The notes: generated by a model from the letters alone, not told the origin. 64,000 nucleotides of DNA from an uncultured Erysipelotrichaceae bacterium (GCA_902767245.1 CACXGO010000002.1:6343-70342), one strand, 5' to 3'; shown: positions 1-63,083, counted from the stretch's first letter. Numbers and translations are program-made.

Positions 1-915
1 GGAGCTAAACTCAATATTGAAAAAACTTTTAAAAATGCTTATTTTAATGCAGAAATATCAAGAACCTGTTATGTTGTAAATGACATTTTAAAAGATTTGA
101 TTAGAAAAAATGCTCTTGGTGATGTAATTGTACTAAACTTTGGTGCTAATGGAGATTGCTCACAAGCAACAAAAGAAACAATATTGAAAACAATTGGTGA
201 TAGAAAAGTATTTTGGTTAACAGTTACTAATGATAAAAAGGTTCACTTTAATGATAAAATAAAGGCTTTTGCAGCAAAATATGATAATTTATATATAATT
301 GACTGGGAAGCAATATCTAAAGGACATAAAGAATACTTCTATTCAGATGGACTTCATCTTCCAACTCCAGGTAGAATTGCATATACAAATGCAATATATG
401 AAGCCATTTATAAAGTTTATTTAGATGAATTTAATGCTAAAAAAGAAGAAATCATGAATAAACATAATGAGGATTTAAAAACACAGATTAGTTTTTACGG
501 CAATGATATAATTTTAAATGCTTTTGATAGTTTGAAAAACGAATTTAAAAATGGAAATTTTGTTTTAAACAAAGACTTTACTTATGAAGAAGTAAAGTCA
601 GAATTAGAAAAAAACAAAGATAATTTAACCCATAGATTAGTGTTTGCTTTTGATCAATCACTAAAATTGACTAAAGAAGAATATCAAAGCATAGTTGATT
701 TATGTAAAGATCATGAAATATATATTGTAAATATGTCAAGTGAGAAACTAGACCTTGAAAATGTAGAGGAGATAGACTTTTACAGCGAAATAAAAACTCA
801 TAGAAATTATGTAATGGCTGATAAGATTCATTTAACAACTGAAGGAAATAAAGCATTTGTTTCAAAATTAACTGAAGTGTTAAATTCTTTTAAGACTGAA
901 GAAAAACAGGATTAA
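1..915 (+). CDS. acyltransferase-associated SGNH/GDSL-type hydrolase domain protein, 5' end outside the window
   Basis: The frame is open from base 1 (GAKLNIEKTF..) into tracked ORF 97..915. VIVLNFGANG and SDGLHLP resemble SGNH blocks, as in OatA-type C-terminal domains. The last ~150 aa are unassigned. Confidence 0.5.
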   Translation, partial: GAKLNIEKTFKNAYFNAEISRTCYVVNDILKDLIRKNALGDVIVLNFGANGDCSQATKETILKTIGDRKVFWLTVTNDKKVHFNDKIKAFAAKYDNLYIIDWEAISKGHKEYFYSDGLHLPTPGRIAYTNAIYEAIYKVYLDEFNAKKEEIMNKHNEDLKTQISFYGNDIILNAFDSLKNEFKNGNFVLNKDFTYEEVKSELEKNKDNLTHRLVFAFDQSLKLTKEEYQSIVDLCKDHEIYIVNMSSEKLDLENVEEIDFYSEIKTHRNYVMADKIHLTTEGNKAFVSKLTEVLNSFKTEEKQD

Positions 916-1469
916 TTCCTGTTTTTATTTTTGGTTAGTTGTGGAGCTTTTTCTTCTTCTCCTGTTATTATTTTTATTTCGGGAATATTTCGATATTTTT
1001 CATCTAAATCTAATCCATATCCGACAACAAAATAATCCGGAATTGTAAAGCCAACATAATCTACTTTAATATTTTTATTTTCTCTTGATTTTGGTTTATC
1101 AAGCAAAGTACATAATTGCAAGCTTTTAGGATTTTGAATCATTAAGTGATCAATTAAGTATGAAAGAGTTTTTCCTGTATCAATGATATCCTCAACAATA
1201 ATGACATTTTTACCAGTAATTGGTTTATCTAAATCAAGTTTTAAAGTTATTTCTCCAGTTGAATCTTTACCTCGGTAGCTTGATATTCGCATAAACTCTA
1301 GTTCAACATCAAGATCAATTTGTCTTGATAGATCAGCAAAGAAGTAAATAGAGCCTTTTAAGATACAAATAAGGGTTAATTTTTCACCTTGATGATTCTT
1401 TGTGATTTCTTGAGCCAAATCTTTAATTCTTTTTTTTAATACTGCTTTATCAATTAAAGTAGTCATCAT
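912..1469 (-). CDS. hpt: hypoxanthine phosphoribosyltransferase
   Basis: PRPP-binding motif VIIVEDIIDTGKTL and LICILKGS..FFADL. I moved the start to ATG 1469, which is preceded by GGTGATAAT, the SD context seen at many genes here. Confidence 0.9.
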   Translation of the reverse strand: MMTTLIDKAVLKKRIKDLAQEITKNHQGEKLTLICILKGSIYFFADLSRQIDLDVELEFMRISSYRGKDSTGEITLKLDLDKPITGKNVIIVEDIIDTGKTLSYLIDHLMIQNPKSLQLCTLLDKPKSRENKNIKVDYVGFTIPDYFVVGYGLDLDEKYRNIPEIKIITGEEEKAPQLTKNKNRN

Positions 1470-1550
1470 ATTATCACCGCTTTCTAACATGATTTTATCA
1501 AATATTTTAAATTAAAACAATAAATATGTTATAATTAAATAGGTGATAAT

Positions 1551-2213
1551 ATGAAAAAGTTAAAAATATCATTTTATTTAAACATTTTTATATTTATTCT
1601 AGTACTCATAGCAACGATTATTATGTTAACAGGTTTTCAGTTTATGGGTGAAGATTTAGTACTAACAGCAACCAAAATTGAAGCATTCAAATTTTTTACG
1701 GTTGATTCCAATGTTTTGATGGGGATAACAGCAATAATATTTGCTTTATATGAACATAAATATATTAAAAATAAAGAAAAAATACCAACTTTTATGTATG
1801 TATTAAAGTTAGTTTCAACGACTGCTGTTGTATTAACGTTTTTAACAACAACATTTTACTTGGCACCTTTTGTTCCAAGTGGATTTTTCTCAATGTTTAT
1901 AAATAGTAACTTGTTTTTTCATTTTATAATTCCACTCTTAAGTTTAGTGACATTTATGTTTTTTGAAAATACCAATGTAATTAAATTTAAATATACATTT
2001 TTAGGTATAATTCCTACATTTTTATATGCTATTTTTTATTTAATAAATGTTTTATTGCACATTGAAAACGATAAAGTATCTTATACATATGATTGGTATG
2101 GCTTTGCTCAAGGAGGAACTAATACCATTGTATTTACATTTTCATTTATGTTAATAATTACATATGTAATATGTGCTATAATCTGGCTTTTTAATAAGAA
2201 AATTAGTAAATAG
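1551..2213 (+). CDS. polytopic integral membrane protein, function unknown
   Basis: 220-aa ORF with about 6 hydrophobic segments. GGTGATAAT SD lies directly before the ATG. Confidence 0.5.
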   Translation: MKKLKISFYLNIFIFILVLIATIIMLTGFQFMGEDLVLTATKIEAFKFFTVDSNVLMGITAIIFALYEHKYIKNKEKIPTFMYVLKLVSTTAVVLTFLTTTFYLAPFVPSGFFSMFINSNLFFHFIIPLLSLVTFMFFENTNVIKFKYTFLGIIPTFLYAIFYLINVLLHIENDKVSYTYDWYGFAQGGTNTIVFTFSFMLIITYVICAIIWLFNKKISK

Positions 2214-2228
2214 ATGAAGGAGAATTTT

Positions 2229-2678
2229 ATGAAAATATTTGTAGCAGGTGCTGTCAGTTCTGCAAAAAAAGAACAGTTGGAGAAGTATAATATATATAAA
2301 AAAATTTTAGAAGAAACATTTGAAGATTTAATTTTAACAACGCCAGATGATATATGGGATTATAGAAATAAATGTATTGATGAGAATCCAAACTTTGAAA
2401 AGATTAGTATAGATAAATTGATGGTAGATTATGATTTAAAACAAGTTAAAGAAAGTGATTTAATTATTTGTGATATTTCAGAAATTTCAACAGGAATGGG
2501 GATTGAACTTGGTATTGCCCATGAAAATAACAAAAAAATCTTATTTTTCTATGAAAAAGGATCTTATATTAGTAATATGATTAGTGGTTCTTTTAAAGAT
2601 GCGCATTTTATTGAATATGCTAATACTGATGAATTAGTGGGTAAACTTAAATTTGAATTAAAAAATTTATATAATTAA
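2229..2678 (+). CDS. nucleoside 2-deoxyribosyltransferase-like protein
   Basis: KIFVAGA N-terminus and ISTGMGIELGIA..KKILFF resemble the deoxyribosyltransferase-like fold. AAGGAG lies 6 nt before ATG 2229. Confidence 0.5.
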   Translation: MKIFVAGAVSSAKKEQLEKYNIYKKILEETFEDLILTTPDDIWDYRNKCIDENPNFEKISIDKLMVDYDLKQVKESDLIICDISEISTGMGIELGIAHENNKKILFFYEKGSYISNMISGSFKDAHFIEYANTDELVGKLKFELKNLYN

Positions 2679-2703
2679 AAATAATCATTTGATTATTTTT
2701 TTA

Positions 2704-2731
2704 TTGCATTTTTATAAAAATATAGTATAAT
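2704..2731 (+). promoter_or_regulatory. sigma-A type promoter of the zur-znu operon
   Basis: TTGCAT (2704-2709), 16-nt spacer, TATAAT (2726-2731). Confidence 0.6.
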
Positions 2732-2757
2732 CAATTTGAAAATGATTTTCAAATTGA
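2731..2757. promoter_or_regulatory. Fur-family (Zur) operator, perfect 13-1-13 palindrome
   Basis: TCAATTTGAAAAT-G-ATTTTCAAATTGA is perfectly symmetric around G2744. It abuts the -10 box and covers the expected transcription start, directly upstream of the Fur-family gene. Confidence 0.65.
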
Positions 2758-2769
2758 AAGAAGGATTAT

Positions 2770-3171
2770 ATGTATAAAACAAAACAAAAAGATTTAATTT
2801 TAAAAATAGTAAAAAAGCAAAAAAGTGAGTTTACTATTAAAGATATATATGATGATTTAAATAAAGAAGTTGGATTAACAACAATATATCGTTTTATAGA
2901 TAAATTGGTTAAAGATGGCAAATTGAATAAGAGCATTGGTGAAAATAATACGACTTATTATCAATATTTAGAAGAATGCTGTAATCATAATCACTTTTAT
3001 TTAAAATGTGAAAAATGTGGCAATATAATACATATTGATTGTGATTGCATTGAAGAATTGACAAATCACATTTTATTGAATCATAAATTTAAGCCATGCC
3101 GTGAACATATCATTATAAATGGGATATGTGAAAAATGTGATGGAGGTGTAAAAGATGAAAAAAATAGTTAA
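2770..3171 (+). CDS. zur: Fur family transcriptional regulator, probably zinc-responsive (Zur)
   Basis: Winged-helix region TIYRFIDKLVKDGKL plus C-terminal CxxC pairs (CEKCG, CEKCDG). It is the first gene of a metal ABC importer operon. Confidence 0.75.
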   Translation: MYKTKQKDLILKIVKKQKSEFTIKDIYDDLNKEVGLTTIYRFIDKLVKDGKLNKSIGENNTTYYQYLEECCNHNHFYLKCEKCGNIIHIDCDCIEELTNHILLNHKFKPCREHIIINGICEKCDGGVKDEKNS

Positions 3172-4069
3172 AACAATTATATTTTTAATATGTGCATTAA
3201 TTTTAGTTGGATGTAAAAAAAATGATAATAAATCACTTTTGATAGTTACTAGTAATTTCCCAAGTTATGATTTTACCAGAGCTATCATAAAAGATTCAAA
3301 TATTTCAGTTCAAATGTTATTAAAACCTGGTAGTGAAATTCATGATTTTGAACCAACACCACAAGATATAATTAAAATAGAAGATAGCAGCATTTTTATT
3401 TATACTGGTGGAGAATCTGATAGTTGGGTTCAAGGAATACTAAAAGAAAAGATTAAAACAAAAGTAATAAAGTTAATTGATTTAGTTGAAACTTATGAAG
3501 AAGAGATTACTGAGGGAATGGATGAAATAGAAGAAGAAAAAGAAATTGATGAACATGTGTGGACAAGTCCATTAAATGCAATCAAAATTGTTTCATCAAT
3601 AAAAGAAGAAATTATTAAACTTGATCCTCAGAATAAACAATTATATGAAAAAAATGCCGAAAATTATATCAGTGAACTAACTAAAGTAGATAAGGAGATA
3701 AAAGATATCGTTTCATCTTCTAAAAGAAAAGAAGTAATTTTTGGTGATCGTTTTCCATTACGTTATTTTACTCAAGAATATGGTTTAACTTATTATGCCG
3801 CTTTTAAAGGCTGCTCAGAATCAACAGAAGCAAGTGCTAAAACACTCACATTTTTAATTAATAAAGTTAAAGAAGATAAAATACCTGTAGTTTTTAAAAT
3901 AGAGCTTTCAAATGGCAAAATAGCAGAATCAATTGCTAGAGAAACAGGTGTAAAAATACTAGAATTTCATAGTGCTCATAATATAAGTAAGAGTGATTTT
4001 GAAAATGGAATAACTTATATAGATATTATGATAAATAATATTAAAGTTTTAAGGGAGGCATTAAATTAA
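3155..4069 (+). CDS. znuA: metal (probably zinc) ABC transporter substrate-binding lipoprotein, TroA/ZnuA family
   Basis: Lipobox LVGC, DFEPTPQD, DEHVWTSP and an acidic loop typical of cluster-9 binding proteins. Zn rather than Mn is inferred only from the Fur-family neighbour. Confidence 0.8.
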   Translation: MKKIVKTIIFLICALILVGCKKNDNKSLLIVTSNFPSYDFTRAIIKDSNISVQMLLKPGSEIHDFEPTPQDIIKIEDSSIFIYTGGESDSWVQGILKEKIKTKVIKLIDLVETYEEEITEGMDEIEEEKEIDEHVWTSPLNAIKIVSSIKEEIIKLDPQNKQLYEKNAENYISELTKVDKEIKDIVSSSKRKEVIFGDRFPLRYFTQEYGLTYYAAFKGCSESTEASAKTLTFLINKVKEDKIPVVFKIELSNGKIAESIARETGVKILEFHSAHNISKSDFENGITYIDIMINNIKVLREALN

Positions 4070-4749
4070 TGAATTTAATTGAACTTAAAAATGTAACTCT
4101 TGGTTATGATAATCATATTGTTTTAAAAAATATAAATTTTATAGTTGAAGAAAACGATTTTATTTGTATTGTTGGACCTAATGGATCAGGGAAATCAACT
4201 TTAATAAAAGGAATTTTAGGACTTATAAAGCCTTTAAAAGGCCAAATTAAGTTTAATAATTTAAAACAAAATTTTATTGGTTATATGCCTCAAGAGACAA
4301 AAGTTGATGCTAATTTCCCAGCTTCTGTTTGGGAAATAGTTTTATCAGGAACTTTGAATAATTGTTTAAAACCATTTTATACAAAGAAAGAAAAAGATAT
4401 TGCATTAAAAAATTTAAAAATTCTTCATATTGAAGCTTTGAAAGATAAAAGTTTTGCTGATTTATCCGGTGGTCAAAGACAAAAAGTTTTACTGGCTAGA
4501 AGTTTATGTGCAACTTCAAAATTATTAATATTAGATGAACCTTCAAATAATTTGGACACAAAATCAAAAGAAAGCTTGTATGAAATCATTTCAGATTTAA
4601 ATAAAAATCATGGTATAACTATCATTATGATTACGCATGATTTAGATCATAATAATTTACTTGGGAATAAAATTTTATCCCTTCGTGAAGATGATATTTT
4701 CTATGGCTCAACAGAAGAATTTGTAAGGAGAATTCATCATGATAAATAG
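4069..4749 (+). CDS. znuC: metal ABC transporter ATP-binding protein
   Basis: Walker A GPNGSGKST, signature LSGGQRQ, Walker B LLILDEP. Confidence 0.85.
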   Translation: MNLIELKNVTLGYDNHIVLKNINFIVEENDFICIVGPNGSGKSTLIKGILGLIKPLKGQIKFNNLKQNFIGYMPQETKVDANFPASVWEIVLSGTLNNCLKPFYTKKEKDIALKNLKILHIEALKDKSFADLSGGQRQKVLLARSLCATSKLLILDEPSNNLDTKSKESLYEIISDLNKNHGITIIMITHDLDHNNLLGNKILSLREDDIFYGSTEEFVRRIHHDK

Positions 4750-14748: not shown

Positions 14749-14928
14749 AACCATCATCTCCAATCTTAAAGAAAAGAGGCATCACCCAACTTATTAAATG
14801 TTCCTTATATCGATTATAGCAAACATTAGTTCTGTATGCGATATTCTGATATAAAAATATTGAAGTAAACCACAGGTTGCTTTAATAGTTTTTTGTTATA
14901 TGCTAATATTTATTTCGGAGGAGATAAA

Positions 14929-15855
14929 GTGAATCAAGAAAAAATTGGTAGTTTTATATCTAAAAAAAGAAAAGAAAAAAAGTTAACTCAAGAAGCATTA
15001 GCTGAAAAATTAAATGTTAGTAAAAATGCGGTTTCAAAGTGGGAACGTGGTATATGTTTAATGGATATGTCACTTTTAAAACCACTTTCAGAAATACTTG
15101 ATGTTTCAATTAATGAAATATTAAATGGTGAAGAAATAAAAAAAGAGGAATTAAAAGAAAAAACCGATGAAGTATTAAATAATACTATTAATTATTCAAC
15201 TAAGAAGATAAAAAAAATTAAGAATAAAATATTATTTATTGTTTTAGTTTCAATAATTATCTTGTTTTTGGGAACATTTTTAATTGACTATAAGCGAATT
15301 AAAGAAAATCTAAATCCACTTTTTATGATTCCTATTTCTGAAAATGGGAGTGAATATACTTATCTTGGCCCTGGTTATAAGATGGTTAAAAAGACAAGTG
15401 TTTCTCCACTTGAACCTCTTGTTAATAGTCGGGAAATTCGTTTTGGACTTTGGTTTTTTACTTGGCAAGTAAAAATATTTAATACAAAACCATATAATAT
15501 TTGGATAACAAATGGTGATAATAGTATTTTAATGAATGTTGGATCATATTGTATAACAGATACTATTGAGGATGATAAATCAAGTGAGTGTGGTCTTTCT
15601 ATTCCAATTGAAAAAATAAAATATAAAGAAGTTTTAGAAGCTTTTAAAAATCAAACTATTGAATTAGACTCTAAATTTGTAAAAATATCTCAAGTAAGAT
15701 TTTATGATTTAAATGGAAATAAAATAAATATTGCTATTTCAAACAAAAAATACAGTTTTAAAGTACCAGATTTATTAGGAGAGTATTTAGTACTACTTGA
15801 TACTATTTCAGAAAGAGGTAGTGTTTGGTACTCATTTAAAATAAGCATAAACTAA
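14929..15855 (+). CDS. membrane-anchored XRE-family HTH transcriptional regulator
   Basis: LTQEALAEKLNVSKNAVSKWERG HTH, one TM helix (ILFIVLVSIIILFLGTFLI) and a ~190-aa C-terminal domain of unknown type. GTG 14929 follows GGAGGAG. Confidence 0.7.
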   Translation: MNQEKIGSFISKKRKEKKLTQEALAEKLNVSKNAVSKWERGICLMDMSLLKPLSEILDVSINEILNGEEIKKEELKEKTDEVLNNTINYSTKKIKKIKNKILFIVLVSIIILFLGTFLIDYKRIKENLNPLFMIPISENGSEYTYLGPGYKMVKKTSVSPLEPLVNSREIRFGLWFFTWQVKIFNTKPYNIWITNGDNSILMNVGSYCITDTIEDDKSSECGLSIPIEKIKYKEVLEAFKNQTIELDSKFVKISQVRFYDLNGNKINIAISNKKYSFKVPDLLGEYLVLLDTISERGSVWYSFKISIN

Positions 15856-46832: not shown

Positions 46833-48632
46833 ATGGGAAAAGAAAAATCAAATAAAACTGAAGCTTATGAAAAAATAATTGAATCTCCAGAATTAAAAAG
46901 AGTATTAAGACATTATAAAGTTTTTAATATAGCCTCAAAAACAATTAAAGAAATGTTGATTGAAGCTATTAGATTAACTAAAGAAGAAAATAATAATTAT
47001 GTCCAAACCGTAATATCTTTACTTAATAATAAAATGAAAGAACATATCAAGAATTGTCTTATTGATGAATCATATTTGTTTGAAGTTTTAAATCGATTTA
47101 TTAGTAAGAGTTTTAAAGAAAACTGTTCATCTGATGAATCTAGTTTAAATTTAAAAAAATTCAGTAAATTTCTTGAAAGTATAAATGTAGAGTTAAATCC
47201 GGATTTAATTTTCAATTTGTTGAATAGTAATTCTATATTTAATGCTAATGTAAAATCAATAGTAGAAAAAAAGTTACCATTAATAAAAAAAGTGGGGATT
47301 GAAAAAGTTTTTATAGACTCAAGTATTGCTTTGATTTGTAGCAGTTATTGTATGCCTAAAAATATTGATATTTCGGTTGATGAGATATCTAATCAATCAG
47401 TACCAAATATTGAATCAGAAAATGCTTATTCGGATGACAATATAGGTTACTTAGATCCATTAAAACAATATTTAAATGAAATAATTAAAGTTCCCCTATT
47501 AACAAAAGAAGAAGAATATGAGTTATGCATGCGAATAAAAAATGGTGATGATATAGCTAATAAAAAATTAATAGAAGCTAATTTAAGACTAGTAGTGTCA
47601 ATTGCAAGAAAATATTTAAATAGAGGTATTGAATTTTTAGATTTAATTCAAGAAGGAAATGAAGGCTTGATGATAGCAACAAAAAGATTTGATGCTACTA
47701 AAGGCTTTAAATTTTCAACATATGCAACATGGTGGATTCGTCAATCAATTCTGAGAGCATTAGCTGAAAAAAGTCGTAACATCAGACTTCCTGTTTATTT
47801 GACTGAAAAAATTAACTTTATAAATCGTACAAAATCATATTTAACAAATAAGTTAAATCGCGAACCTACTTTAGGAGAAATAGCAGAGTATACTAAAATG
47901 ACTGAAAGTGAAATTAATGAAATTTTAATGGTTTCTCAAAACACAATAAGTTTAAATCAAACTATAAAAGTTAGTGCTGATAATGATTTTAGTGAGAATG
48001 AACTTGGGGATTTCATTCCTGACGAAAAACAAGAATTTGAAGATAAAGTGTTAAAAAAAGGTCAATATAATGAAATTATTGAAATTATTAAAAGTATTAA
48101 ATCTTTAAATGAACGTGAATTAGAAGTTCTTCTCTTAAGAATAGGTATTGTAGATGGTAAAAAGTGGACTCTTGAAAAATGTGGTCGTAAACTTGGTATC
48201 ACACGTGAAAGAGTAAGACAAATAGAATCACGAGCTCGTAGTAAGATAATAAACTCAAACAAAAGAGGTATACTTATTGAATATGCAGACAATCAATTGG
48301 AAATTATAAAGAAACTAAAAAGTTATAATCCAAATATAATGGCTCATGAAAGAATCTATGAATTTGTGAAGGCTGCTATAGGGAATGATTTATATGCTCG
48401 TATTTTTGGTTTAAGAATGGGCTATGTCGATGGGAATAGGCATTCAATTTATAGTATTTCTCAAATGATTGGAATGAGTTCATCACATATATATGAAATA
48501 TGTAGTAAAGTTTTAACTAGAATAAGTGATTGCACATTTAAGGATGAAATGATTAAACTAGATCCAAATTTAGAAATATTGTTTATAAAAATGAATTTAA
48601 TTGGAAACACAAAAGAATTAAAATTGTCTTAA
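46833..48632 (+). CDS. sigma-70 family (group 1/2-like) RNA polymerase sigma factor with N- and C-terminal extensions
   Basis: Region 1.2 to 4.2 is clear at aa 208-472: DPLKQYLNEI, LIEANLRLVVSIARKY, DLIQEGNEGLM, YATWWIRQSI, LGITRERVRQIESRA. It is flanked by 207 unassigned aa and a 127-aa tail. Confidence 0.8.
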   Translation: MGKEKSNKTEAYEKIIESPELKRVLRHYKVFNIASKTIKEMLIEAIRLTKEENNNYVQTVISLLNNKMKEHIKNCLIDESYLFEVLNRFISKSFKENCSSDESSLNLKKFSKFLESINVELNPDLIFNLLNSNSIFNANVKSIVEKKLPLIKKVGIEKVFIDSSIALICSSYCMPKNIDISVDEISNQSVPNIESENAYSDDNIGYLDPLKQYLNEIIKVPLLTKEEEYELCMRIKNGDDIANKKLIEANLRLVVSIARKYLNRGIEFLDLIQEGNEGLMIATKRFDATKGFKFSTYATWWIRQSILRALAEKSRNIRLPVYLTEKINFINRTKSYLTNKLNREPTLGEIAEYTKMTESEINEILMVSQNTISLNQTIKVSADNDFSENELGDFIPDEKQEFEDKVLKKGQYNEIIEIIKSIKSLNERELEVLLLRIGIVDGKKWTLEKCGRKLGITRERVRQIESRARSKIINSNKRGILIEYADNQLEIIKKLKSYNPNIMAHERIYEFVKAAIGNDLYARIFGLRMGYVDGNRHSIYSISQMIGMSSSHIYEICSKVLTRISDCTFKDEMIKLDPNLEILFIKMNLIGNTKELKLS

Positions 48633-48649
48633 TTTATTTAAAAATAAAG

Positions 48650-48678
48650 ATTGTGAACATCACAATTTTTATTTTTTT
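48650..48678 (+). terminator. rho-independent terminator
   Basis: ATTGTGA-ACA-TCACAAT followed by a T-rich run. Confidence 0.75.
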
Positions 48679-48697
48679 AAAAAACAAACAAATGTTC

Positions 48698-48726
48698 GTG
48701 ACAAATGAATTTTTGTATTGTATAAT
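48698..48726 (+). promoter_or_regulatory. promoter of the radical-SAM / DUF4130 / GroEL-like operon
   Basis: gTGACA (48698-48703), 17-nt spacer, TATAAT (48721-48726). Confidence 0.6.
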
Positions 48727-48742
48727 TAAGATGGTGATGGTT

Positions 48743-49954
48743 ATGAATTTAAAAGAAAAGCTTGAAATACTTGCTGATAGTGCCAAGTATGATGCATCAT
48801 GTTCCTCTAGTGGAAGTACTAGAAATGATAAAGGGTTAGGTAATGTTGCATATTCAGGAATTTGTCATTCATTTGCAAACGATGGAAGATGTATTTCTCT
48901 TTTAAAAATTCTAATGACAAATGCCTGTATCTTTGATTGTAAATATTGTATTAATAGAAAAAGTAACAGTGTTAAAAGAGCTATTTTTACTCCTGAAGAA
49001 ATTTGTGAAATTACAATTAACTTTTATAAAAGAAATTATATAGAAGGTTTATTTTTAAGCTCTGGTATTATTAAAAATCCGGATTATACGATGTCTAAAA
49101 TAATTGAGACAATTTACCTGCTTCGAAATAAGTATCATTTTGCTGGTTATATTCACGCTAAAGCCATACCTGGTGCTAGTGACTATTTAATTAAAAAGTT
49201 AGGTAAACTTGTCGATAGAATGAGTGCTAATATTGAGCTTCCAAGGGACGATTCATTAAAATTACTTGCACCAGATAAAAAACCAGATAAAATTAGTTCA
49301 ATAATGCAAACTGTTAAAGATAACAGAAGTCGAAATTTTGCTCCAGCTGGTCAAAGTACCCAAATGATTATTGGTGCAAGTAAAGAAACAGATTTAGAAA
49401 TACTTTCAAAAAGCGAATCGCTTTATAATAGGTATTCTTTAAAAAGAGTTTTTTATTCAGCTTATATTCCGGTTAATAAAGATAAATTATTACCAAGCAT
49501 AGAAATTCCACCATTAGTACGTGAAAACAGACTTTATCAGGCCGATTGGCTTCTAAGATTCTATGGTTATAAAGTTGATAATTTGTTAGAAGAAAAAAAT
49601 CCCAACTTTAATATTTTACTTGATCCAAAAGCGGATTGGGCTTTAAGACATTTTGAAGAGTTTCCTAAAGAAATAAATAAATCAAGTTATTATGATTTAT
49701 TAAAAGTCCCAGGAATAGGTCCAAAATCTGCTAAAAAAATAATTTCATCAAGAAAAGTTTTTAAGATTGAATTTAATGATTTAAAAAAAATGAGTATTTC
49801 TCTTAAAAGAGCTAAATATTTTATTACTTGTAATGGCAAATTTTATATTAATATGGGTTTATTTCAAAAAAAGTTTGTAGAAAGCAGCTTATTATTAGAA
49901 ACTAAAAAAGATGTTTCAAATAATAAAGAACAACTAAGATTAACTTATGAGTAA
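48743..49954 (+). CDS. putative DNA modification/repair radical SAM protein (TIGR03916-like)
   Basis: LADSAKYDASCSSSGS, GICHSFANDGRCISLLKILMTNACIFDCKYCINR, RNYIEGLFLSSG and GYIHAKAIPG follow the family signature. ATG 48743 follows GGTGATGG. Confidence 0.8.
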   Translation: MNLKEKLEILADSAKYDASCSSSGSTRNDKGLGNVAYSGICHSFANDGRCISLLKILMTNACIFDCKYCINRKSNSVKRAIFTPEEICEITINFYKRNYIEGLFLSSGIIKNPDYTMSKIIETIYLLRNKYHFAGYIHAKAIPGASDYLIKKLGKLVDRMSANIELPRDDSLKLLAPDKKPDKISSIMQTVKDNRSRNFAPAGQSTQMIIGASKETDLEILSKSESLYNRYSLKRVFYSAYIPVNKDKLLPSIEIPPLVRENRLYQADWLLRFYGYKVDNLLEEKNPNFNILLDPKADWALRHFEEFPKEINKSSYYDLLKVPGIGPKSAKKIISSRKVFKIEFNDLKKMSISLKRAKYFITCNGKFYINMGLFQKKFVESSLLLETKKDVSNNKEQLRLTYE

Positions 49955-50684
49955 TATTTATTTGTATAATGGAGATTATTCATCATTGTTAAATTTAATA
50001 ATTGAACTTTTAAAACAAAAAATAAATCCAGATAATATAAAAAACTGTGATTATGAACCAAATTTGTTAGAACAAATAGTTAATTTAAAATTGGATAATA
50101 AAAACAATTTAAAGATTTTAAATAAAATGCCCAAGATCATTTTAAAAAGTATATATTATGTATATTTATCAAATAATGAAAATAAAGAATTGCTTATTTT
50201 TGAGTTTTTAAAATATGCCTTTAAATATAAGGAAGATGTATTTAGATATCGTAATATAGATAGCATCAATGAGGTTATAAAAATTATTAAATATGTTGGT
50301 TCAGAAGCTCACAAGTTAAAAGGATTTTTAAGATTTAAACAAGTTAAAAACTTTTATTATGCTGTTATTGAACCTACCAATAATGTTATTTCTATTTTAG
50401 CCACTCATTTTAAAAAACGTTTAAGTGAAGAATTATGGATTATATATGACAAAAAAAGAAATATATATGCTCTTTATGATTTAAAAAAAGTTATATATTT
50501 AAAAGAAAGTGAATTTAAATCACTTAATTTAGATCTTGATGAAAATGAAAAAAATATTGAAGAATTATGGAAAACATTTTTTAAAACAATTTCTATTAAA
50601 GAAAGAAAAAATTTGAAATGCCAAATGAATTTTATGCCAAAAAAATATTGGAAAAACATGCTTGAAATGGAGGATAGAATATGA
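49947..50684 (+). CDS. TIGR03915-like probable DNA metabolism protein (DUF4130)
   Basis: N-terminus IYLYNGDYSSLLNLI and E.HKLKGFLRF fit the family. It overlaps the radical SAM gene by 8 nt. Confidence 0.7.
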   Translation: MSNIYLYNGDYSSLLNLIIELLKQKINPDNIKNCDYEPNLLEQIVNLKLDNKNNLKILNKMPKIILKSIYYVYLSNNENKELLIFEFLKYAFKYKEDVFRYRNIDSINEVIKIIKYVGSEAHKLKGFLRFKQVKNFYYAVIEPTNNVISILATHFKKRLSEELWIIYDKKRNIYALYDLKKVIYLKESEFKSLNLDLDENEKNIEELWKTFFKTISIKERKNLKCQMNFMPKKYWKNMLEMEDRI

Positions 50685-52210
50685 AGAAGATTATAATGGG
50701 TGAAGAATTAAAAAAAACTATGGAAAATGGAATTCAATTAATAGCTAGTGCAGTTGGATCAACTTTAGGTCCTAAAGGGAATAATGTTTTAATTAATAAA
50801 TATGATACAAGTCCATTTATTACTAATGATGGTGTAACGATTGCATCATCGATAGAAAGTGATGATGCAAGTATTAATACTATCTTGGAAATAGTAAAAG
50901 AAGCATCATTAAAAACTAATGAATTAGTAGGTGACGGAACGACGACGACGATTGTTTTATTAGAAAATATTTTTAAAGAAGGTTTAAATGTAATTAGAAA
51001 TGGTAAAAATCCAATAGTTTTAAAAGAAGAATTGGATAAAACATTAGAAAGTATTTTAGAACTTATAGATAAATATAAGAAAAAACCAACCAAAGAAGAA
51101 TTAATAAATATTGCAAAAACATCATGTAATGATGACGAATTAGGAAAATTTTTGGCAGATATTTTTTTAGATGTAAAAAATAAATACGCAATCAAAATTG
51201 AAGAAAGTAGTACTGAAAAAACATATGTCAAAAAACAAAAAGGTTATATATTTGAATTAGATAATGTTTCTAATGCATATTTTCTTAATAGTAATGAGAT
51301 AGTTTTAAATGATACCAGTATATTGTTATTAAAAGGCTATTTGGATGATTTAGAAGTAATTAATGATTTTATTAATGAATCTTTAGTAAAAAATCAAAAT
51401 TTATTAATTCTAGCTGAAGATGTAAGTGAAGATGTAAAAAACCAAATTCTTTCTTACTATCTTGATTATCAAAAAAATATTTTTTTATTTTTATTACCAG
51501 ATTATATATCAAGGAAATATGCGGTTATTCAAGATCTTATGGCAATAAGTGGTGGTATATTTAAAAGTGTTATGGAATCGATTAGTTATGAAGATTTAGG
51601 TCGAGTTTCTAAAGTAGTAATAAATAAAGATAATATTGCTTTTTCATTTGAACGCAAAATTGATAAGTATGTAAATAAACTAAAAAAAGATTTTGAAGGA
51701 TTAAATGATTATGAAAAAGTATTTATGGCTCAAAGAATTGCTTCGTTAGATTTTGGTATAACAACAATTTATGTTGGTGCTATAACTAAAACAGAAATGA
51801 AAGAAAAGAAAATGCGCATTGAAGATGCAATTAATGCTTTAGACATTGCTAGTCGTGGAGTTTGTTTAGGAGCAGGCATTACATTTTTTAGAATATCTGA
51901 GGAAATAAAATGTGAAAATGATGGATATCAAATTATGATTAATTCTTTAAAGGTGCCAATGCAAAAAATTATGAATAATTGTGGTGAAGATTATGAAAAT
52001 TTAAAAAATGAAATTATTAAAACCAACTATCAAAAAATATATAATTGTAAATTGAGACAATTTGAAAACATCAATAACACAAATATTTTAGATCCTGCTG
52101 AAGTCTTAAAAACGGCTTTAAAGAATGCAGTATCGATAGCATCAATGTTACTTACGACTAATTATTTAATTATTAATGAAAAAAATGTTAAAATTGAAGA
52201 ATATATATAG
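50681..52210 (+). CDS. divergent Cpn60/GroEL-family chaperonin-like ATPase
   Basis: Collinear with GroEL: TLGPKGNNVLI, FITNDGVTIA, LVGDGTTTTIVL, KMRIEDAINAL, ILDPAEVLKTALKNAVSIASMLLTT. It lacks the GGM tail. GGAGGA SD, and the ATG overlaps the upstream stop (ATGA). Confidence 0.7.
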   Translation: MKKIIMGEELKKTMENGIQLIASAVGSTLGPKGNNVLINKYDTSPFITNDGVTIASSIESDDASINTILEIVKEASLKTNELVGDGTTTTIVLLENIFKEGLNVIRNGKNPIVLKEELDKTLESILELIDKYKKKPTKEELINIAKTSCNDDELGKFLADIFLDVKNKYAIKIEESSTEKTYVKKQKGYIFELDNVSNAYFLNSNEIVLNDTSILLLKGYLDDLEVINDFINESLVKNQNLLILAEDVSEDVKNQILSYYLDYQKNIFLFLLPDYISRKYAVIQDLMAISGGIFKSVMESISYEDLGRVSKVVINKDNIAFSFERKIDKYVNKLKKDFEGLNDYEKVFMAQRIASLDFGITTIYVGAITKTEMKEKKMRIEDAINALDIASRGVCLGAGITFFRISEEIKCENDGYQIMINSLKVPMQKIMNNCGEDYENLKNEIIKTNYQKIYNCKLRQFENINNTNILDPAEVLKTALKNAVSIASMLLTTNYLIINEKNVKIEEYI

Positions 52211-52229
52211 ACAATATTTTTGATATTTG

Positions 52230-52238
52230 TGATATAAT
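52230..52238 (+). promoter_or_regulatory. extended -10 promoter element TGATATAAT for ORF 52263
   Basis: TGnTATAAT lies 24 nt upstream of the ATG, preceded by TTTTTGATAT as at ORF 43065. Confidence 0.5.
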
Positions 52239-52262
52239 GTATCTTAATAAAGGAGTAAAAAA

Positions 52263-52997
52263 ATGCAAAAATTAAGAATTGATCAAGAAAAATTAATGCA
52301 AGTAATGTTTGATAAATTTGCTTTAATAAATGATAGCAAAAGAATTGAAGATTTAAATCCTAAAATAAATCAAGTACGCGAAAAATATACTGTTTTAAAT
52401 AGTATTGTTTTTTCAAATCCAAATGATAGAGAATATAGTTCCGTTGAATTTATTAGAAAATTTGATTTTAATGGTTGTAAATACATTGTTATTTGTAAAA
52501 ACATTTGGGAATATATATTTATTAATCTTAATACAGGTCAATGTTTAAGTAAATCAGAAATTTTAAAATCGTTTGATAAGATGTATTTAAAACATTTTTT
52601 TGGAATTTTTACGGATTTTAGATGTTTGCATTTTGATGGAAATATTAAAGCTTTAAATGATTTTTATGAAGCCAATAAAGAAATTTTTAGTTCAAAAAAT
52701 AATATTGATTATACAATCATGCTTGATGAAATAGCAAATATATTTGCTAATTTAAATATTGGATTAAATAATAATAAAACTCAAATATTAGTTAGAGCTC
52801 CAGGAAATAGATTTCTAAATTTACGCCTTATTTTTGATGAGAATCTTGAATTAATAGAATCAAACTATCCATTAAATCCAAGTAGTTATGCAGAAATAAA
52901 AGACATTAAGATTCCTTATGAAGTATTACCAAGTATTTTCTTAACTAGTGAACAGATTGAAAAAGGTAATAGAAAAAGACTTAGTTTATATGAATAA
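52263..52997 (+). CDS. hypothetical protein (orphan B), weakly similar to ORF 43065..43925
   Basis: 244-aa ORF with an AAAGGAG SD and no recognised motif. It ends 26 nt before tRNA-Ser. Confidence 0.55.
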   Translation: MQKLRIDQEKLMQVMFDKFALINDSKRIEDLNPKINQVREKYTVLNSIVFSNPNDREYSSVEFIRKFDFNGCKYIVICKNIWEYIFINLNTGQCLSKSEILKSFDKMYLKHFFGIFTDFRCLHFDGNIKALNDFYEANKEIFSSKNNIDYTIMLDEIANIFANLNIGLNNNKTQILVRAPGNRFLNLRLIFDENLELIESNYPLNPSSYAEIKDIKIPYEVLPSIFLTSEQIEKGNRKRLSLYE

Positions 52998-53023
52998 AAA
53001 AATCTTTACTATTATCTTATAGT

Positions 53024-53113
53024 GAAGAGTTATCGAAGTGGTTATAACGAGCTTGACTCGAAATCAAGTTGTCATTATGTGGCACGTGGGTTCGAATCCC
53101 ACACTCTTCGCCA
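53024..53113 (+). tRNA. tRNA-Ser (anticodon CGA), class II with long variable arm
   Basis: Acceptor GAAGAGT/ACTCTTC, anticodon stem-loop CTTGA-CTCGAAA-TCAAG, TPsiC GTGGGTTCGAATCCCAC, encoded CCA. Confidence 0.85.
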
Positions 53114-53120
53114 AAGTAAA

Positions 53121-53148
53121 AAAAACCGTTAATTTATAACGGTTTTTT
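53121..53148 (+). terminator. rho-independent terminator
   Basis: AACCGTTA..TAACGGTT followed by a T-run. Confidence 0.85.
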
Positions 53149-53250
53149 ATATTTGATATAACATATTAAAATAATAAATGAAATAATTAAGCAATTTATA
53201 ATTTGCTAAAAATATATTTTTTCATAAAATAAATCGAAAGTAGTGATAAT

Positions 53251-53580
53251 ATGAAAATTTTAATAAAATGTTGTGTTAAGAATGATTTGGCTTTTCATAC
53301 ATTTAAATTCAATATTTATGATTTAAATAATAATTTAATAATATCTTCCAAGACCGATAAATATGGTTGTTATACATGCGATTTACCTAAAAAACTTTAT
53401 AAGATTGTAATATATAGTAAAAATCTAATACCAAATAGAATGGTTGGCATATTAAATAAAGAAATTAATACCTTTTGTTTTATTAAAAATGATTCTATTG
53501 TTGTTACTTTAACTGATAGTAATTATTCAGGTTTAAAAATAGGAAGGGGGAAAATAATGTTATGGCAAAACCATATGTAA
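53251..53580 (+). CDS. small beta-rich hypothetical protein (CarboxypepD_reg-like pattern), no signal peptide
   Basis: FNIYDLNNNLIISSKTDKYGCYTCDLPKKLYKIVIYS fits a prealbumin-like strand pattern. Candidate promoter TTGCTA-16-TAAAAT at 53203-53230. Confidence 0.45.
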   Translation: MKILIKCCVKNDLAFHTFKFNIYDLNNNLIISSKTDKYGCYTCDLPKKLYKIVIYSKNLIPNRMVGILNKEINTFCFIKNDSIVVTLTDSNYSGLKIGRGKIMLWQNHM

Positions 53581-62997: not shown

Positions 62998-63023
62998 ATT
63001 TTTTTAAAATTAGCACTCATATA

Positions 63024-63056: not shown

Positions 63057-63083
63057 TTAGCATTCAGGTTTGGAGAGTGCTAA
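63057..63083. promoter_or_regulatory. CIRCE operator (HrcA binding site)
   Basis: TTAGCATTC-N9-GAGTGCTAA, against the consensus TTAGCACTC-N9-GAGTGCTAA. It lies between the -10 box and the hrcA SD. Confidence 0.9.

What the first reader, a model, noticed from the sequence alone, without database searches (positions are those of the whole stretch)
48698..52210. Divergent GroEL/Cpn60-family gene with no adjacent groES, translationally coupled to the TIGR03916/TIGR03915-type radical-SAM DNA repair pair
Seen in sequence: one gTGACA-17-TATAAT promoter (48698-48726) precedes three tightly packed ORFs. The radical SAM gene (48743..49954) overlaps the DUF4130/TIGR03915-like gene (49947..50684) by 8 nt. 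That gene's stop overlaps the ATG (ATGA, with GGAGGA 6 nt upstream) of a 509-aa ORF collinear with GroEL from the first residues (MKKIIMGEELKKTM.. against MAKDIKFGEDAR..). The nucleotide-pocket motifs survive: LGPKGNNV, TNDGVTIA, GDGTTTT, RIEDAINAL, DPAEVLKTALKNA. The rest is heavily diverged, by eye well below the level usual among Firmicute GroELs. The C-terminal Gly-Met tail is absent and AVEEGIVAGGG is replaced by ASRGVCLGAGI. No groES-sized ORF lies upstream and no CIRCE element is present, although the hrcA promoter in this same window carries a near-perfect CIRCE. Established knowledge: the radical SAM plus TIGR03915 genes form a conserved two-gene module with an unproven DNA repair or modification role. 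I know of no description of a chaperonin-family ATPase as a third member. Inference: this may be a dedicated chaperonin-like partner or an uncharacterised three-component system, not the housekeeping GroEL.
Basis: partly seen in the sequence, partly recalled or inferred. Interest (0 to 1): 0.72.

Follow-up and report, generated by a model that had tools for sequence, protein, structure and literature searches.

The report
DNA-damage operon with its own chaperonin
In a large group of uncultured small-genome gut bacteria, a very divergent GroEL-type chaperonin with no GroES is always the third gene of a putative DNA-repair operon (radical SAM enzyme plus DUF4130 protein) that carries a LexA-type operator, an arrangement I found described nowhere.

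Summary
The promoter, the 8-nt and 4-nt gene overlaps, the GGAGGA ribosome site and the quoted motifs are all present.

The 509-aa protein has a full three-domain GroEL fold with an intact ATPase site. It is only 28-36% identical to ordinary GroELs and falls below every NCBIfam GroEL cut-off.

The linkage is not local. In 79/79 species-level genomes with upstream DNA, DUF4130 lies directly before the chaperonin gene. The radical SAM gene precedes DUF4130 in 73/73. Flanking genes differ and start/stop overlaps are kept.

Starting from the radical SAM gene, 10/10 loci at 63% identity or more carry the chaperonin. About 50 loci at 61% or less carry only the two-gene pair.

One relative (L225) has radical SAM, DUF4130, groES and groEL in a row, which looks like the ancestral state.

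GroES-less members have lost hydrophobic residues needed for GroES and substrate binding. They also lack the GGM tail and the inter-ring contacts.

A LexA/Cheo-type palindrome sits about 57 nt upstream in 68 of about 70 loci (window 48685-48698). No CIRCE is present.

Best reading: a DNA-damage-induced, GroES-independent chaperonin dedicated to this repair pair. Whether these genomes also keep an ordinary groESL could not be tested.

The parts
48685..48698 (.). Palindromic operator CAAACAAATGTTCG, a LexA/Cheo-box type (GAAC-N4-GTTC with 1 mismatch). It abuts and overlaps the -35 hexamer by 1 nt.
   Evidence: It is the best hit of the position weight matrix in the whole 64-kb window (20.7 against the next best 15.6). 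The same motif C[AG]AAC-N4-GTT[TC]G lies 55-59 nt before the radical SAM start in 68 of about 70 triad loci. It is also present in L093 and L225, which were not used to build the matrix. Two-gene relatives carry GAAC-N4-GTTC with at most 1 mismatch in 43/61 loci, against 5% background. Binding by LexA is inferred, not shown.
48698..48726 (+). Sigma-70-type promoter candidate, GTGACA-17 nt-TATAAT.
   Evidence: 11 of 12 matches, the best in 48400-53400. It sits in the only intergenic gap before the operon. It is a consensus match only, and such matches are not enriched in this AT-rich DNA.
48743..49954 (+). [quoted passage not shown] It has the CxxxCxxC cluster motif (C62, C66, C69; nt 48926-48951), a weak helix-hairpin-helix match at residues 311-340, and a degenerate clamp-binding-type C-terminal motif QLRLT(Y) at nt 49931-49948.
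   Evidence: TIGR03916 scores 609 bits against a cut-off of 343.5. Pfam Radical_SAM matches; HHH_3 is below its cut-off. It is 66-80% identical across triad loci. dN/dS is 0.03-0.10. The C-terminal QLSLF motif is present in 85/89 triad loci.
49947..50684 (+). DUF4130 / TIGR03915 protein, 245 aa, with no uracil-DNA-glycosylase domain. It overlaps the radical SAM gene by 8 nt.
   Evidence: TIGR03915 scores 224 bits against 112. Pfam DUF4130 has E = 3.6e-49. The overlap is shown. The gap between the radical SAM stop and the DUF4130 start is -8 or -4 nt in 66 of 84 triads.
50669..50684 (+). Translational-coupling junction: Shine-Dalgarno GGAGGA (50669-50674), then ATGA (50681-50684), where the chaperonin start overlaps the DUF4130 stop.
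   Evidence: The same -4 overlap occurs in 51 of 84 triad loci, and the rest have small overlaps or gaps of at most 28 nt.
50681..52210 (+). Divergent group I chaperonin (GroEL/Cpn60 superfamily), 509 aa. The ATPase site is intact, the apical binding groove is altered, there is no GGM tail and there is no partner groES.
   Evidence: Pfam full length; below all GroEL cut-offs; 246 bits to T. thermophilus GroEL. (T30, G32, P33, D52, D87, T89-91, D398, G416, D495 and hinge glycines invariant). (4 of 8 apical contact positions still hydrophobic). (AlphaFold2 pLDDT 85; TM 0.85 to GroES-bound GroEL subunits). (dN/dS 0.09-0.31).

Best explanation
The three genes form one operon, most probably repressed by LexA and switched on by DNA damage.

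The first two products are the known but uncharacterised pair: a radical SAM enzyme (TIGR03916) and its DUF4130 partner (TIGR03915). The enzyme has a weak helix-hairpin-helix match and, in most relatives, a C-terminal QLSLF motif of the type that binds the sliding clamp. The pair therefore probably acts on damaged DNA at the replication fork.

The third product is a GroEL-derived ATPase that has become the private chaperonin of this module. It is made in fixed proportion to the other two through translational coupling. It most likely still forms a ring. It uses ATP to fold or assemble the radical SAM enzyme, the radical SAM-DUF4130 complex, or both, and it works without GroES.

It arose when a groES-groEL pair was joined to the two-gene operon. 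groES was then lost, and the residues for GroES binding and general substrate binding, the inter-ring contacts and the GGM tail decayed, while the ATPase core was kept.

Shown here: the gene linkage, its phylogenetic boundary, the conserved operator motif, the conserved ATPase residues, the altered apical residues, the purifying selection, and the four-gene intermediate.

Inferred: that LexA binds the operator, the clamp binding, the ring state, and above all that the clients are the two neighbouring proteins.
For: Linkage:
- DUF4130 lies directly upstream of the chaperonin gene in 79/79 loci with upstream DNA. The radical SAM gene precedes it in 73/73, with different flanks.
- Overlapping junctions are kept in 84 triads.

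Boundary:
- Radical SAM genes at 63% identity or more always carry the chaperonin (10/10).
- Those at 61% or less never do, in about 50 loci with at least 3 kb of downstream DNA.

Every family or near-family chaperonin inspected is linked: P0001, P0040, P0165, P0173, P0214, P0222, P0242, P0260.

Intermediate: L225 has radical SAM, DUF4130, Cpn10 and Cpn60, all overlapping, with the same operator upstream.

Apical contact positions 199, 203, 204, 234, 237, 259, 263 and 264:
- 8 of 8 are hydrophobic in E. coli, in the two ordinary GroES-paired relatives and in the GroES-paired L225 protein.
- Position 234 is polar in every GroES-less outlying or basal member listed singly, and polar or alanine across the main family. 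The family mean is 5.7 of 8 and the window protein has 4 of 8.

ATPase and hinge residues are invariant.

Fold: pLDDT 85 and TM 0.85 to GroEL.

Selection: dN/dS is 0.09-0.31, so the gene is functional.

Regulation:
- The Cheo-type box sits at a fixed distance in 68 of about 70 triads.
- The same box type is present in 43/61 two-gene relatives.
- No CIRCE precedes any triad (best match 6 of 18 mismatches), although CIRCE and hrcA are in this window.

Literature:
- The homologous two-gene operon (COG1573-COG4277) is LexA-regulated in other phyla (PMC8565304).
- It is a DNA-damage-response gene in Acinetobacter (PMC12392091).
- The radical SAM and DUF4130 proteins are predicted to form a complex (bioRxiv 10.64898/2026.08.19.745780).
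- QLSLF is the clamp-binding motif of B. subtilis PolC (PMC12309361).
Against: - No direct evidence of any physical or functional contact between the chaperonin and the other two proteins.
- The substrate of the radical SAM enzyme is unknown, so 'DNA repair' is itself an annotation-level inference.
- lexA and recA were not found in the 1.4 Mb of DNA held, so the regulator is not identified.
- In the window itself the clamp-type motif is degenerate (QLRLTY).
- If these genomes have no other GroEL, the protein could still serve other clients.
- Most two-gene versions of the module work without any private chaperonin, so the need for one is not explained.
Confidence: 0.5

Rival explanations
1. 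It is the only chaperonin left in these reduced genomes. The ancestral housekeeping groES-groEL happened to lie downstream of, or fused to, the radical SAM operon. groES was lost as the proteome became less dependent on GroE, as in Mollicutes. The remaining GroEL still serves several clients. The gene linkage reflects history plus convenience of expression, not a private client.
For: No GroES and no second GroEL were found in the window or in about 1.4 Mb from about 95 triad-bearing contigs. This is weak, because only about one chance capture was expected. The four-gene intermediate shows that a complete groES-groEL was once in this position. The hosts are labelled Bacilli, Tenericutes or Mycoplasma MAGs, with contigs of 0.9-1.2 Mb. 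Mollicutes are the one group known to lose GroE (PMC5810989, PMC13245659). The two ordinary GroES-paired relatives closest to the family have very few relatives of their own.
Against: An essential general chaperonin would not be expected as the third, translationally coupled gene behind a LexA-type operator with no CIRCE, when the same genome keeps hrcA and CIRCE. It evolves no more slowly than ordinary housekeeping proteins of the same genome pairs: 41-42% identity where LeuRS is 44-49%, other proteins 50-64% and the radical SAM enzyme 72%. Its dN/dS is 0.09-0.31. Half of the general substrate-binding hydrophobic residues are gone in the window protein. Strict linkage persists down to about 31-33% identity while all flanks are reshuffled.
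Confidence: 0.22
2. The chaperonin fold has been put to a new use as a working subunit of the repair machine and not as a folding helper. It would be an ATP-driven ring that holds, shields or delivers the oxygen-sensitive radical SAM-DUF4130 complex. Alternatively it would strip that complex from the clamp or from DNA after the reaction.
For: Stoichiometric co-expression through ATGA coupling is conserved. The ATPase and hinge residues are invariant while the general client groove is remodelled into a different but still partly conserved surface: I237, L263 and Y265 kept, S234 and K259 new. The inter-ring contacts and the R197-E386 salt bridge are lost, which suggests changed allostery.
Against: Nothing distinguishes this from a folding role with the tools at hand. 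The protein remains acidic (median pI 5.0), so direct DNA binding is not suggested. The four-gene intermediate with its own GroES points to ordinary encapsulation as the original role.
Confidence: 0.15
3. The adjacency has no functional meaning, or the gene is decaying. It would be a leftover GroEL paralogue drifting next to an unrelated operon.
For: It diverges fast and scores below all curated GroEL cut-offs. NCBI names at least one member 'hypothetical protein' (P0040).
Against: The reading frame is intact in about 100 loci. The catalytic residues are invariant. dN/dS is well below 1. The junction overlaps are conserved. Linkage is 100% despite reshuffled flanks.
Confidence: 0.03

Closest known systems
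The two-gene module TIGR03916 radical SAM plus TIGR03915/DUF4130 (COG4277 with COG1573 where a uracil-DNA-glycosylase domain is fused). It is a recurrent SOS or DNA-damage-response operon of unknown chemistry.
   Same: Genes 1 and 2 are clear members, with scores far above the cut-offs. They are adjacent and overlapping. A LexA-type box lies upstream, as reported for the homologous operon in Verrucomicrobia, Alphaproteobacteria and Bacteroidetes (PMC8565304) and for the damage response in Acinetobacter (PMC12392091). The two proteins are predicted to form a complex (bioRxiv 10.64898/2026.08.19.745780).
   Different: There is a third, chaperonin gene, which none of the held papers on this module mentions. 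There is no glycosylase domain. In the main triad lineage the radical SAM protein lacks the roughly 16-residue tail that follows QLSLF in two-gene versions.
Specialised or orphan GroEL paralogues: chlamydial GroEL2/GroEL3, mycobacterial GroEL1, Myxococcus GroEL2. Stand-alone groEL genes occur in 770 of 4,861 genomes (PMC5406781; PMC1892554).
   Same: A GroEL-family protein without an adjacent groES, diverged from the housekeeping copy and plausibly specialised for particular clients.
   Different: It does not match the chlamydial variant models (58 and 32 bits against cut-offs of 600). It is much more divergent than most paralogues. It is embedded by overlapping reading frames in an operon for two specific proteins. 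It is under a LexA-type operator rather than heat-shock control.
Phage-encoded GroEL homologues. From my own knowledge, these are reported to work without a co-chaperonin and as single rings, for example in phage EL.
   Same: Similar degree of divergence from cellular GroEL. No groES nearby. No GGM tail. Phage GroELs are among the next-best matches (P0181, P0175).
   Different: No member of this family is on a viral contig. The viral scan found only GroELs at 22-32% identity and no triad. The family forms its own clade in a neighbour-joining tree, with modest support (exact monophyly in 28 of 50 bootstraps). The surrounding genes are ordinary chromosomal genes.
GroEL dependence of a DNA-damage-tolerance protein in E. 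coli: UmuC needs GroEL/GroES (my own knowledge; not checked in the held library).
   Same: A chaperonin supports a damage-induced DNA-processing protein.
   Different: In E. coli the general GroEL does the job and is not SOS-regulated or linked to umuDC. Here the chaperonin is encoded in the operon itself.

Membership tests
GroEL (group I chaperonin; NCBIfam TIGR02348 and GroEL subfamily models) | Score above the curated family cut-off | tested here: not met
   TIGR02348 scores 315 bits against 582. The best subfamily model, NF009487, scores 333 against 352.
GroEL (group I chaperonin) | Full-length Cpn60_TCP1 domain and the three-domain (equatorial, intermediate, apical) fold | tested here: met
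   Pfam PF00118 covers residues 21-499 at 165 bits. The AlphaFold2 model has pLDDT 85. The best Foldseek hits are GroEL chains with TM 0.82-0.86.
GroEL (group I chaperonin) | ATP-binding and hydrolysis residues (T30-P33, D52, D87-T91, D398, G416, D495) and hinge glycines (G192, G375, G410) | tested here: met
   All are invariant in 25 family members.
GroEL (group I chaperonin) | Partner co-chaperonin GroES, normally encoded immediately upstream | tested here: not met
   No Cpn10 in the window or within 10 kb on either side in 80 loci. The gap between DUF4130 and the chaperonin gene is at most 28 nt. The exception is the distant relative L225. A groES elsewhere in the genome could not be excluded.
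GroEL (group I chaperonin) | Hydrophobic apical residues for substrate and GroES binding (Y199, Y203, F204, L234, L237, L259, V263, V264) | tested here: not met
   The window protein has N, A, Y, N, I, K, L, S, so 4 of 8 are hydrophobic. The family mean is 5.7, against 7.3 in other GroELs. Position 234 is polar in the GroES-less members listed singly, and polar or alanine across the family.
GroEL (group I chaperonin) | C-terminal Gly-Gly-Met repeats | tested here: not met
   The protein ends ...NEKNVKIEEYI. None of the family representatives carries the tail, apart from one flagged match in P0167.
GroEL (group I chaperonin) | Double heptameric ring with conserved inter-ring contacts (R452, E461, S463, V464, A109, K105) | tested here: inconclusive
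   The inter-ring residues are not conserved. The elements that form contacts within a ring (stem-loop and terminal strands) are conserved. The oligomeric state itself cannot be tested with these tools.
GroEL (group I chaperonin) | Heat-shock control through CIRCE/HrcA, as is usual in Firmicutes | tested here: not met
   The best CIRCE match upstream of any triad has 6 of 18 mismatches. The window's only CIRCE is at hrcA.
TIGR03916/TIGR03915 radical SAM DNA modification/repair module | Radical SAM protein above the TIGR03916 cut-off, with a CxxxCxxC motif | tested here: met
   609 bits against 343.5. The sequence C62-IFD-C66-KY-C69 is in the translation.
TIGR03916/TIGR03915 radical SAM DNA modification/repair module | Adjacent TIGR03915/DUF4130 protein | tested here: met
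   224 bits against 112. It overlaps the radical SAM gene by 8 nt.
TIGR03916/TIGR03915 radical SAM DNA modification/repair module | Uracil-DNA-glycosylase domain fused to the DUF4130 protein (frequent, but not obligatory) | tested here: not met
   The protein is 245 aa and contains only DUF4130. Most two-gene relatives fetched here also lack the fusion, at 245-330 aa.
TIGR03916/TIGR03915 radical SAM DNA modification/repair module | SOS (LexA) regulation | tested here: inconclusive
   A conserved Cheo-type palindrome is in the right place. No lexA or recA promoter from these genomes was available for comparison.
Chlamydial variant GroEL2/GroEL3 | Match to NF038370 or NF038369 | tested here: not met
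   58 and 32 bits against cut-offs of 600.
Group II chaperonin / thermosome | Match to the thermosome or CCT models | tested here: not met
   At most 57 bits against cut-offs of 400-800, and only the equatorial N-terminal part matches.
Phage-encoded GroEL | Encoded on a viral genome | tested here: not met
   The IMG/VR scan found GroELs at only 22-32% identity and no triad. The window neighbourhood is chromosomal.
Known anti-phage defence systems | Match of any of the three proteins to a PADLOC model | tested here: not met
   No hit for any of the three proteins.

The most novel reading that the evidence does not exclude
The GroEL fold has been converted into an obligatory, ATP-driven subunit of a radical SAM DNA repair machine that is tethered to the sliding clamp. 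In this reading it is a cage that assembles, shields from oxygen, or loads and unloads the radical SAM-DUF4130 complex at stalled forks. It would be produced only on DNA damage, and it would be the only chaperonin these bacteria have. That would be a chaperonin that evolved from general protein folding into a dedicated part of a DNA-damage response.
Probability: 0.15. Interest if true: 0.9.

Novelty: new variant of a known kind. Interest (0 to 1): 0.7.

Why it matters
The radical SAM-DUF4130 pair is one of the most widespread SOS-linked gene pairs whose chemistry is still unknown. A lineage in which it comes with its own chaperonin offers a practical handle, because co-expressing the private chaperonin may be what is needed to obtain the pair soluble and active.

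For chaperonin biology, it is a natural series:
- an ordinary-looking groES-groEL inserted in an operon;
- then loss of groES;
- then stepwise loss of the general binding groove, the tail and the inter-ring contacts.

The series shows how a general folding machine may become client-specific and independent of a co-chaperonin.

It also flags that automatic annotation calls at least one of these proteins 'hypothetical'. Surveys of GroEL presence or absence in reduced genomes may therefore misclassify them either way.

Tried and rejected
(1) Does the same genome hold an ordinary groESL? No tool gives whole-genome access. I tried to recognise co-located genes by identical 'longest contig' lengths.
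- I searched with the two ordinary GroES-paired relatives nearest to the family, P0270 and P0223.
- Neither list shared a contig length with any chaperonin-bearing contig.
- Both queries turned out to have only a handful of close relatives, so the test is uninformative.

(2) I looked for GroES or a second GroEL in all held DNA and found none. Only about one chance capture was expected, so this is weak evidence.

(3) I looked for lexA and recA in the window and the loci, to confirm the operator by autoregulation, and found none. Other strong operator-like sites precede an SNF2 helicase, MgsA/RarA and a Bro-N protein. This is suggestive only.

(4) Defence-system reading: no PADLOC hit for the three proteins. 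Rejected.

(5) Viral or mobile origin: the IMG/VR scan gave only distant phage GroELs. Rejected for the family, although phage GroELs are similarly divergent.

(6) DNA binding by the chaperonin: the median pI is 5.0, like GroEL. Not supported.

(7) ORF244 (52263-52997) as a fourth member: it is absent from all other loci, has no family match and has its own promoter-like element. Rejected.

(8) The representatives closest to the family outside it come from unrelated phyla such as Roseomonas and Nocardioides. Similarity ranking therefore gives no clue to the donor lineage.

(9) Literature searches for any link between a chaperonin and this module, or for a LexA-controlled chaperonin, found nothing relevant.

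Full report
**1. Checking the observation**

The three reading frames are exactly as described:
- 48743-49954, 403 aa. The ATG start agrees with homologues and with the public gene call of the same contig.
- 49947-50684, 245 aa.
- 50681-52210, 509 aa.

The first junction is an 8-nt overlap. The second is ATGA, with GGAGGA 6 nt upstream. GTGACA-17-TATAAT at 48698-48726 is the best promoter-like match in the region. Such matches are not enriched in this 27% G+C DNA, so the hexamers alone mean little.

Profile searches give these assignments:
- Gene 1 is TIGR03916 (609 bits, cut-off 343.5).
- Gene 2 is TIGR03915/DUF4130 (224 bits, cut-off 112), with no glycosylase domain.
- Gene 3 is a full-length Cpn60_TCP1 protein (165 bits, cut-off 34.3). 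It fails every curated GroEL model: TIGR02348 scores 315 against 582.

The window contains no GroES and no second GroEL. Its only CIRCE (63057-63083, one mismatch, none expected by chance) lies in front of a partial ORF that reads as HrcA.

**2. What the third protein is**

It is collinear with GroEL over its whole length, at 28-36% identity. An AlphaFold2 model built from 25 family members has mean pLDDT 85. It superposes on GroEL subunits with TM 0.82-0.86.

The result:
- Invariant: the nucleotide-pocket residues T30, G32, P33, D52, D87, T89-T91, D398, G416 and D495, and the hinge glycines G192, G375 and G410.
- Not kept: the R197-E386 salt bridge (now I/L and K).
- Not kept: the inter-ring contacts R452, E461, S463, V464 and A109.
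- Not kept: the GGM tail.
- Not kept: half of the eight apical hydrophobic residues. From my knowledge of the GroEL mutagenesis literature, these bind both substrate and GroES.

By domain, identity to other GroELs is 34% in the equatorial domain and 23% in the apical domain. It is only 11-15% in helices H and I. The protein stays acidic, with a median pI of 5.0. dN/dS in 12 close pairs is 0.09-0.31. The gene is therefore under purifying selection, though less strictly than the radical SAM gene at 0.03-0.10.

**3. The linkage is conserved**

The protein belongs to a large, almost wholly unnamed family. More than 120 clusters at 90% identity have 46-61% identity to it. There are about 56 clusters at the 50% level.

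A scan of one genome per GTDB species found 289 species with a relative. The best 80 are all gut or rumen MAGs labelled Bacilli, Tenericutes, Erysipelotrichaceae or Mycoplasma. In those 80 loci:
- DUF4130 lies immediately upstream in 79 of the 79 with any upstream DNA.
- The radical SAM gene lies before DUF4130 in 73 of 73 with enough upstream DNA.
- The flanking genes differ from locus to locus.

The junctions stay overlapped in 84 triads: mostly -8 or -4 nt at the first junction and -4 nt at the second.

**4. The reverse test gives a sharp boundary**

I searched metagenome contigs with an alignment of the radical SAM protein and then looked downstream.
- All 10 loci whose radical SAM protein is 63-80% identical to the window's, and which have room downstream, carry the chaperonin gene right after DUF4130.
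- About 50 loci at 51-61% identity, with at least 3 kb of downstream DNA, carry radical SAM plus DUF4130 and no GroEL-like gene.

The chaperonin is therefore a lineage-specific addition to a widespread two-gene module.

**5. Evolutionary series**

I looked up the contigs of progressively more distant chaperonins. All are preceded by DUF4130, and by the radical SAM gene where the contig reaches that far:
- P0165, 38% identity to the window protein.
- P0173, 37%.
- P0214, 33%.
- P0222, 32%.
- P0260, 31%.

These outlying members are closer to ordinary Firmicute GroELs (37-41% identity; 45-49% for the partial one in L155) than the window protein is.

One locus, L225, has four overlapping genes: radical SAM, DUF4130, an 86-aa Cpn10 and a 544-aa Cpn60. 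Its radical SAM protein is 63% identical to the window's, right at the boundary.

The state of the apical groove tracks the presence of GroES:
- 8 of 8 contact positions are hydrophobic in E. coli, in the two ordinary GroES-paired relatives (P0223, P0270) and in the GroES-paired L225 protein.
- 7, 7 and 6 are hydrophobic in P0222, P0260 and P0214.
- The main family averages 5.7, and the window protein has 4.
- Position 234 is polar in each GroES-less member listed singly, and polar or alanine across the main family.

The simplest history is that a groES-groEL pair was captured into the operon. groES was then lost, and the features that serve GroES and general clients decayed. A neighbour-joining tree recovers the main family as a clade, with modest support (28 of 50 bootstraps for exact monophyly). 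The deeper order is not resolved.

**6. Regulation**

A palindrome C[AG]AAC-N4-GTT[TC]G lies 55-59 nt before the radical SAM start in 68 of about 70 triad loci.
- The window copy, CAAACAAATGTTCG at 48685-48698, touches the -35 hexamer. It is the best match in all 64 kb.
- The motif is also present in L093 and L225, which were not used to derive it.
- Two-gene relatives from organisms of 24-63% G+C carry GAAC-N4-GTTC with at most one mismatch upstream of the radical SAM gene in 43 of 61 loci, against 5% of random windows.

From my own knowledge, this is the consensus of the Gram-positive LexA operator, the Cheo box. The homologous operon is reported as LexA-regulated in three other phyla (PMC8565304). 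It is reported as a DNA-damage-response gene in Acinetobacter (PMC12392091).

No CIRCE precedes any triad. I could not confirm the regulator, because no lexA or recA lies in the DNA I hold.

**7. A further feature of the radical SAM protein**

Its C-terminus carries QLSLF in 85 of 89 triad loci and in many two-gene relatives. QLSLF is the clamp-binding motif of B. subtilis PolC (PMC12309361). The window copy is degenerate (QLRLTY).

In two-gene versions, in L225 and in L155, the motif is followed by a conserved tail of about 16 residues. The main triad lineage has lost that tail. Together with the weak helix-hairpin-helix match, this suggests an enzyme recruited to the replication fork.

**8. 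Interpretation**

The best-supported reading is a damage-induced operon whose third product is a private, GroES-independent chaperonin for the first two products (confidence 0.5).

The main rival (0.22) is that it is simply the last chaperonin of a reduced genome. I could not test this.

Evidence against the rival:
- The LexA-type control, and the absence of CIRCE in a genome that has hrcA and CIRCE.
- The rate of evolution: 41-42% identity where LeuRS is 44-49% and the radical SAM enzyme 72%.
- The loss of the general binding groove.

Evidence for the rival:
- Mollicutes are known to lose GroE (PMC5810989, PMC13245659).
- No GroES was found in about 1.4 Mb of carrier contigs.

A third reading (0.15) is that the ring has become a working subunit of the repair machine. 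Meaningless adjacency or gene decay is effectively excluded (0.03).

**9. Comparison with what is known, and novelty**

- Genes 1 and 2 are plain members of the known module.
- Gene 3 belongs to the Cpn60 superfamily by fold and ATPase site. It fails the curated GroEL definition and several defining features: partner GroES, the apical groove, the tail and CIRCE control.
- Orphan and specialised GroEL paralogues are common (PMC5406781, PMC1892554), and phage GroELs are similarly divergent.
- I found no description of a chaperonin as part of this module, or of a chaperonin under a LexA-type operator.

I rate it a new variant of known kinds. It is widespread (up to 289 species) and currently goes largely unnamed; the one named family member in the hit list, P0040, is called 'hypothetical protein'.

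Noticed in passing
window 49931-49948; loci L003-L085 and L143-L222 (C-termini of the radical SAM genes): The TIGR03916 radical SAM proteins end in the sliding-clamp-binding consensus QLSLF in 85/89 triad loci. Many two-gene relatives have it too, followed by an extra conserved tail of about 16 residues (..ED..C(L/I)TGx(I/L/F)) that the main triad lineage lacks. The window copy is degenerate (QLRLTY).
   Followed up: partly
L225 (Logan SRR29243442_19607), 555-4434: A four-gene variant: radical SAM, DUF4130, Cpn10 (86 aa) and Cpn60 (544 aa), all overlapping. The same LexA-type box lies 58 nt upstream. This is a likely ancestral state of the triad.
   Followed up: yes
L156-L222, upstream of the radical SAM genes: Canonical Cheo-type boxes (GAAC-N4-GTTC with at most 1 mismatch) precede the two-gene radical SAM-DUF4130 module in 43/61 loci from organisms of 24-63% G+C. 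The module therefore looks like a general SOS regulon member in these Firmicute-like bacteria.
   Followed up: partly
window 46833-48632: A 599-aa sigma-70 family protein with an N-terminal extension of about 200 residues lies directly upstream of the operon. It matches the PADLOC model MzaA (E = 1.3e-46) over its sigma domain. It neighbours the triad only in this genome.
   Followed up: no
window 63009-63017 and 63057-63083: A near-perfect CIRCE (1 mismatch) and an extra upstream half-site TTAGCACTC lie between promoter-like hexamers in front of hrcA, which runs off the end of the window.
   Followed up: partly
window 52263-52997: A 244-aa ORF directly after the chaperonin gene has no match in Pfam, NCBIfam, PHROGs or PADLOC. 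It is absent from every other triad locus. It has its own TGnTATAAT-like promoter element at about 52229-52238 and is followed by the terminator at 53120-53148.
   Followed up: partly
window 50734-51231, minus strand: A 165-aa antisense ORF inside the chaperonin gene stays open in 56 related loci. This is most likely a by-product of AT-rich codon usage opposite a conserved gene and not a gene itself.
   Followed up: no
L086, about 2723-2749: In a distant triad locus, a CIRCE (3 mismatches) lies between the chaperonin gene and a downstream htpG. Heat-shock control there applies to htpG and not to the chaperonin.
   Followed up: no
window 14819-14834: A weaker copy of the operator-like palindrome (CAAACATTAGTTCT) lies about 60 nt upstream of a 320-aa HTH_3 (XRE-type) protein at 14893-15855.
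   Followed up: partly
L087/L088 (157-kb contigs) and L091/L092: GroEL homologues of 521-528 aa sit among many small ORFs without family matches. This looks like large phage genomes. They are among the closest non-family matches to the window protein.
   Followed up: no
L006 12650, L030 6498, L077 1178: The only other strong operator-like sites in 1.35 Mb of related loci precede an SNF2-family helicase, an MgsA/RarA AAA+ ATPase and a Bro-N domain protein. A Bro-N gene also lies just upstream of the triad in L003/L004.
   Followed up: partly
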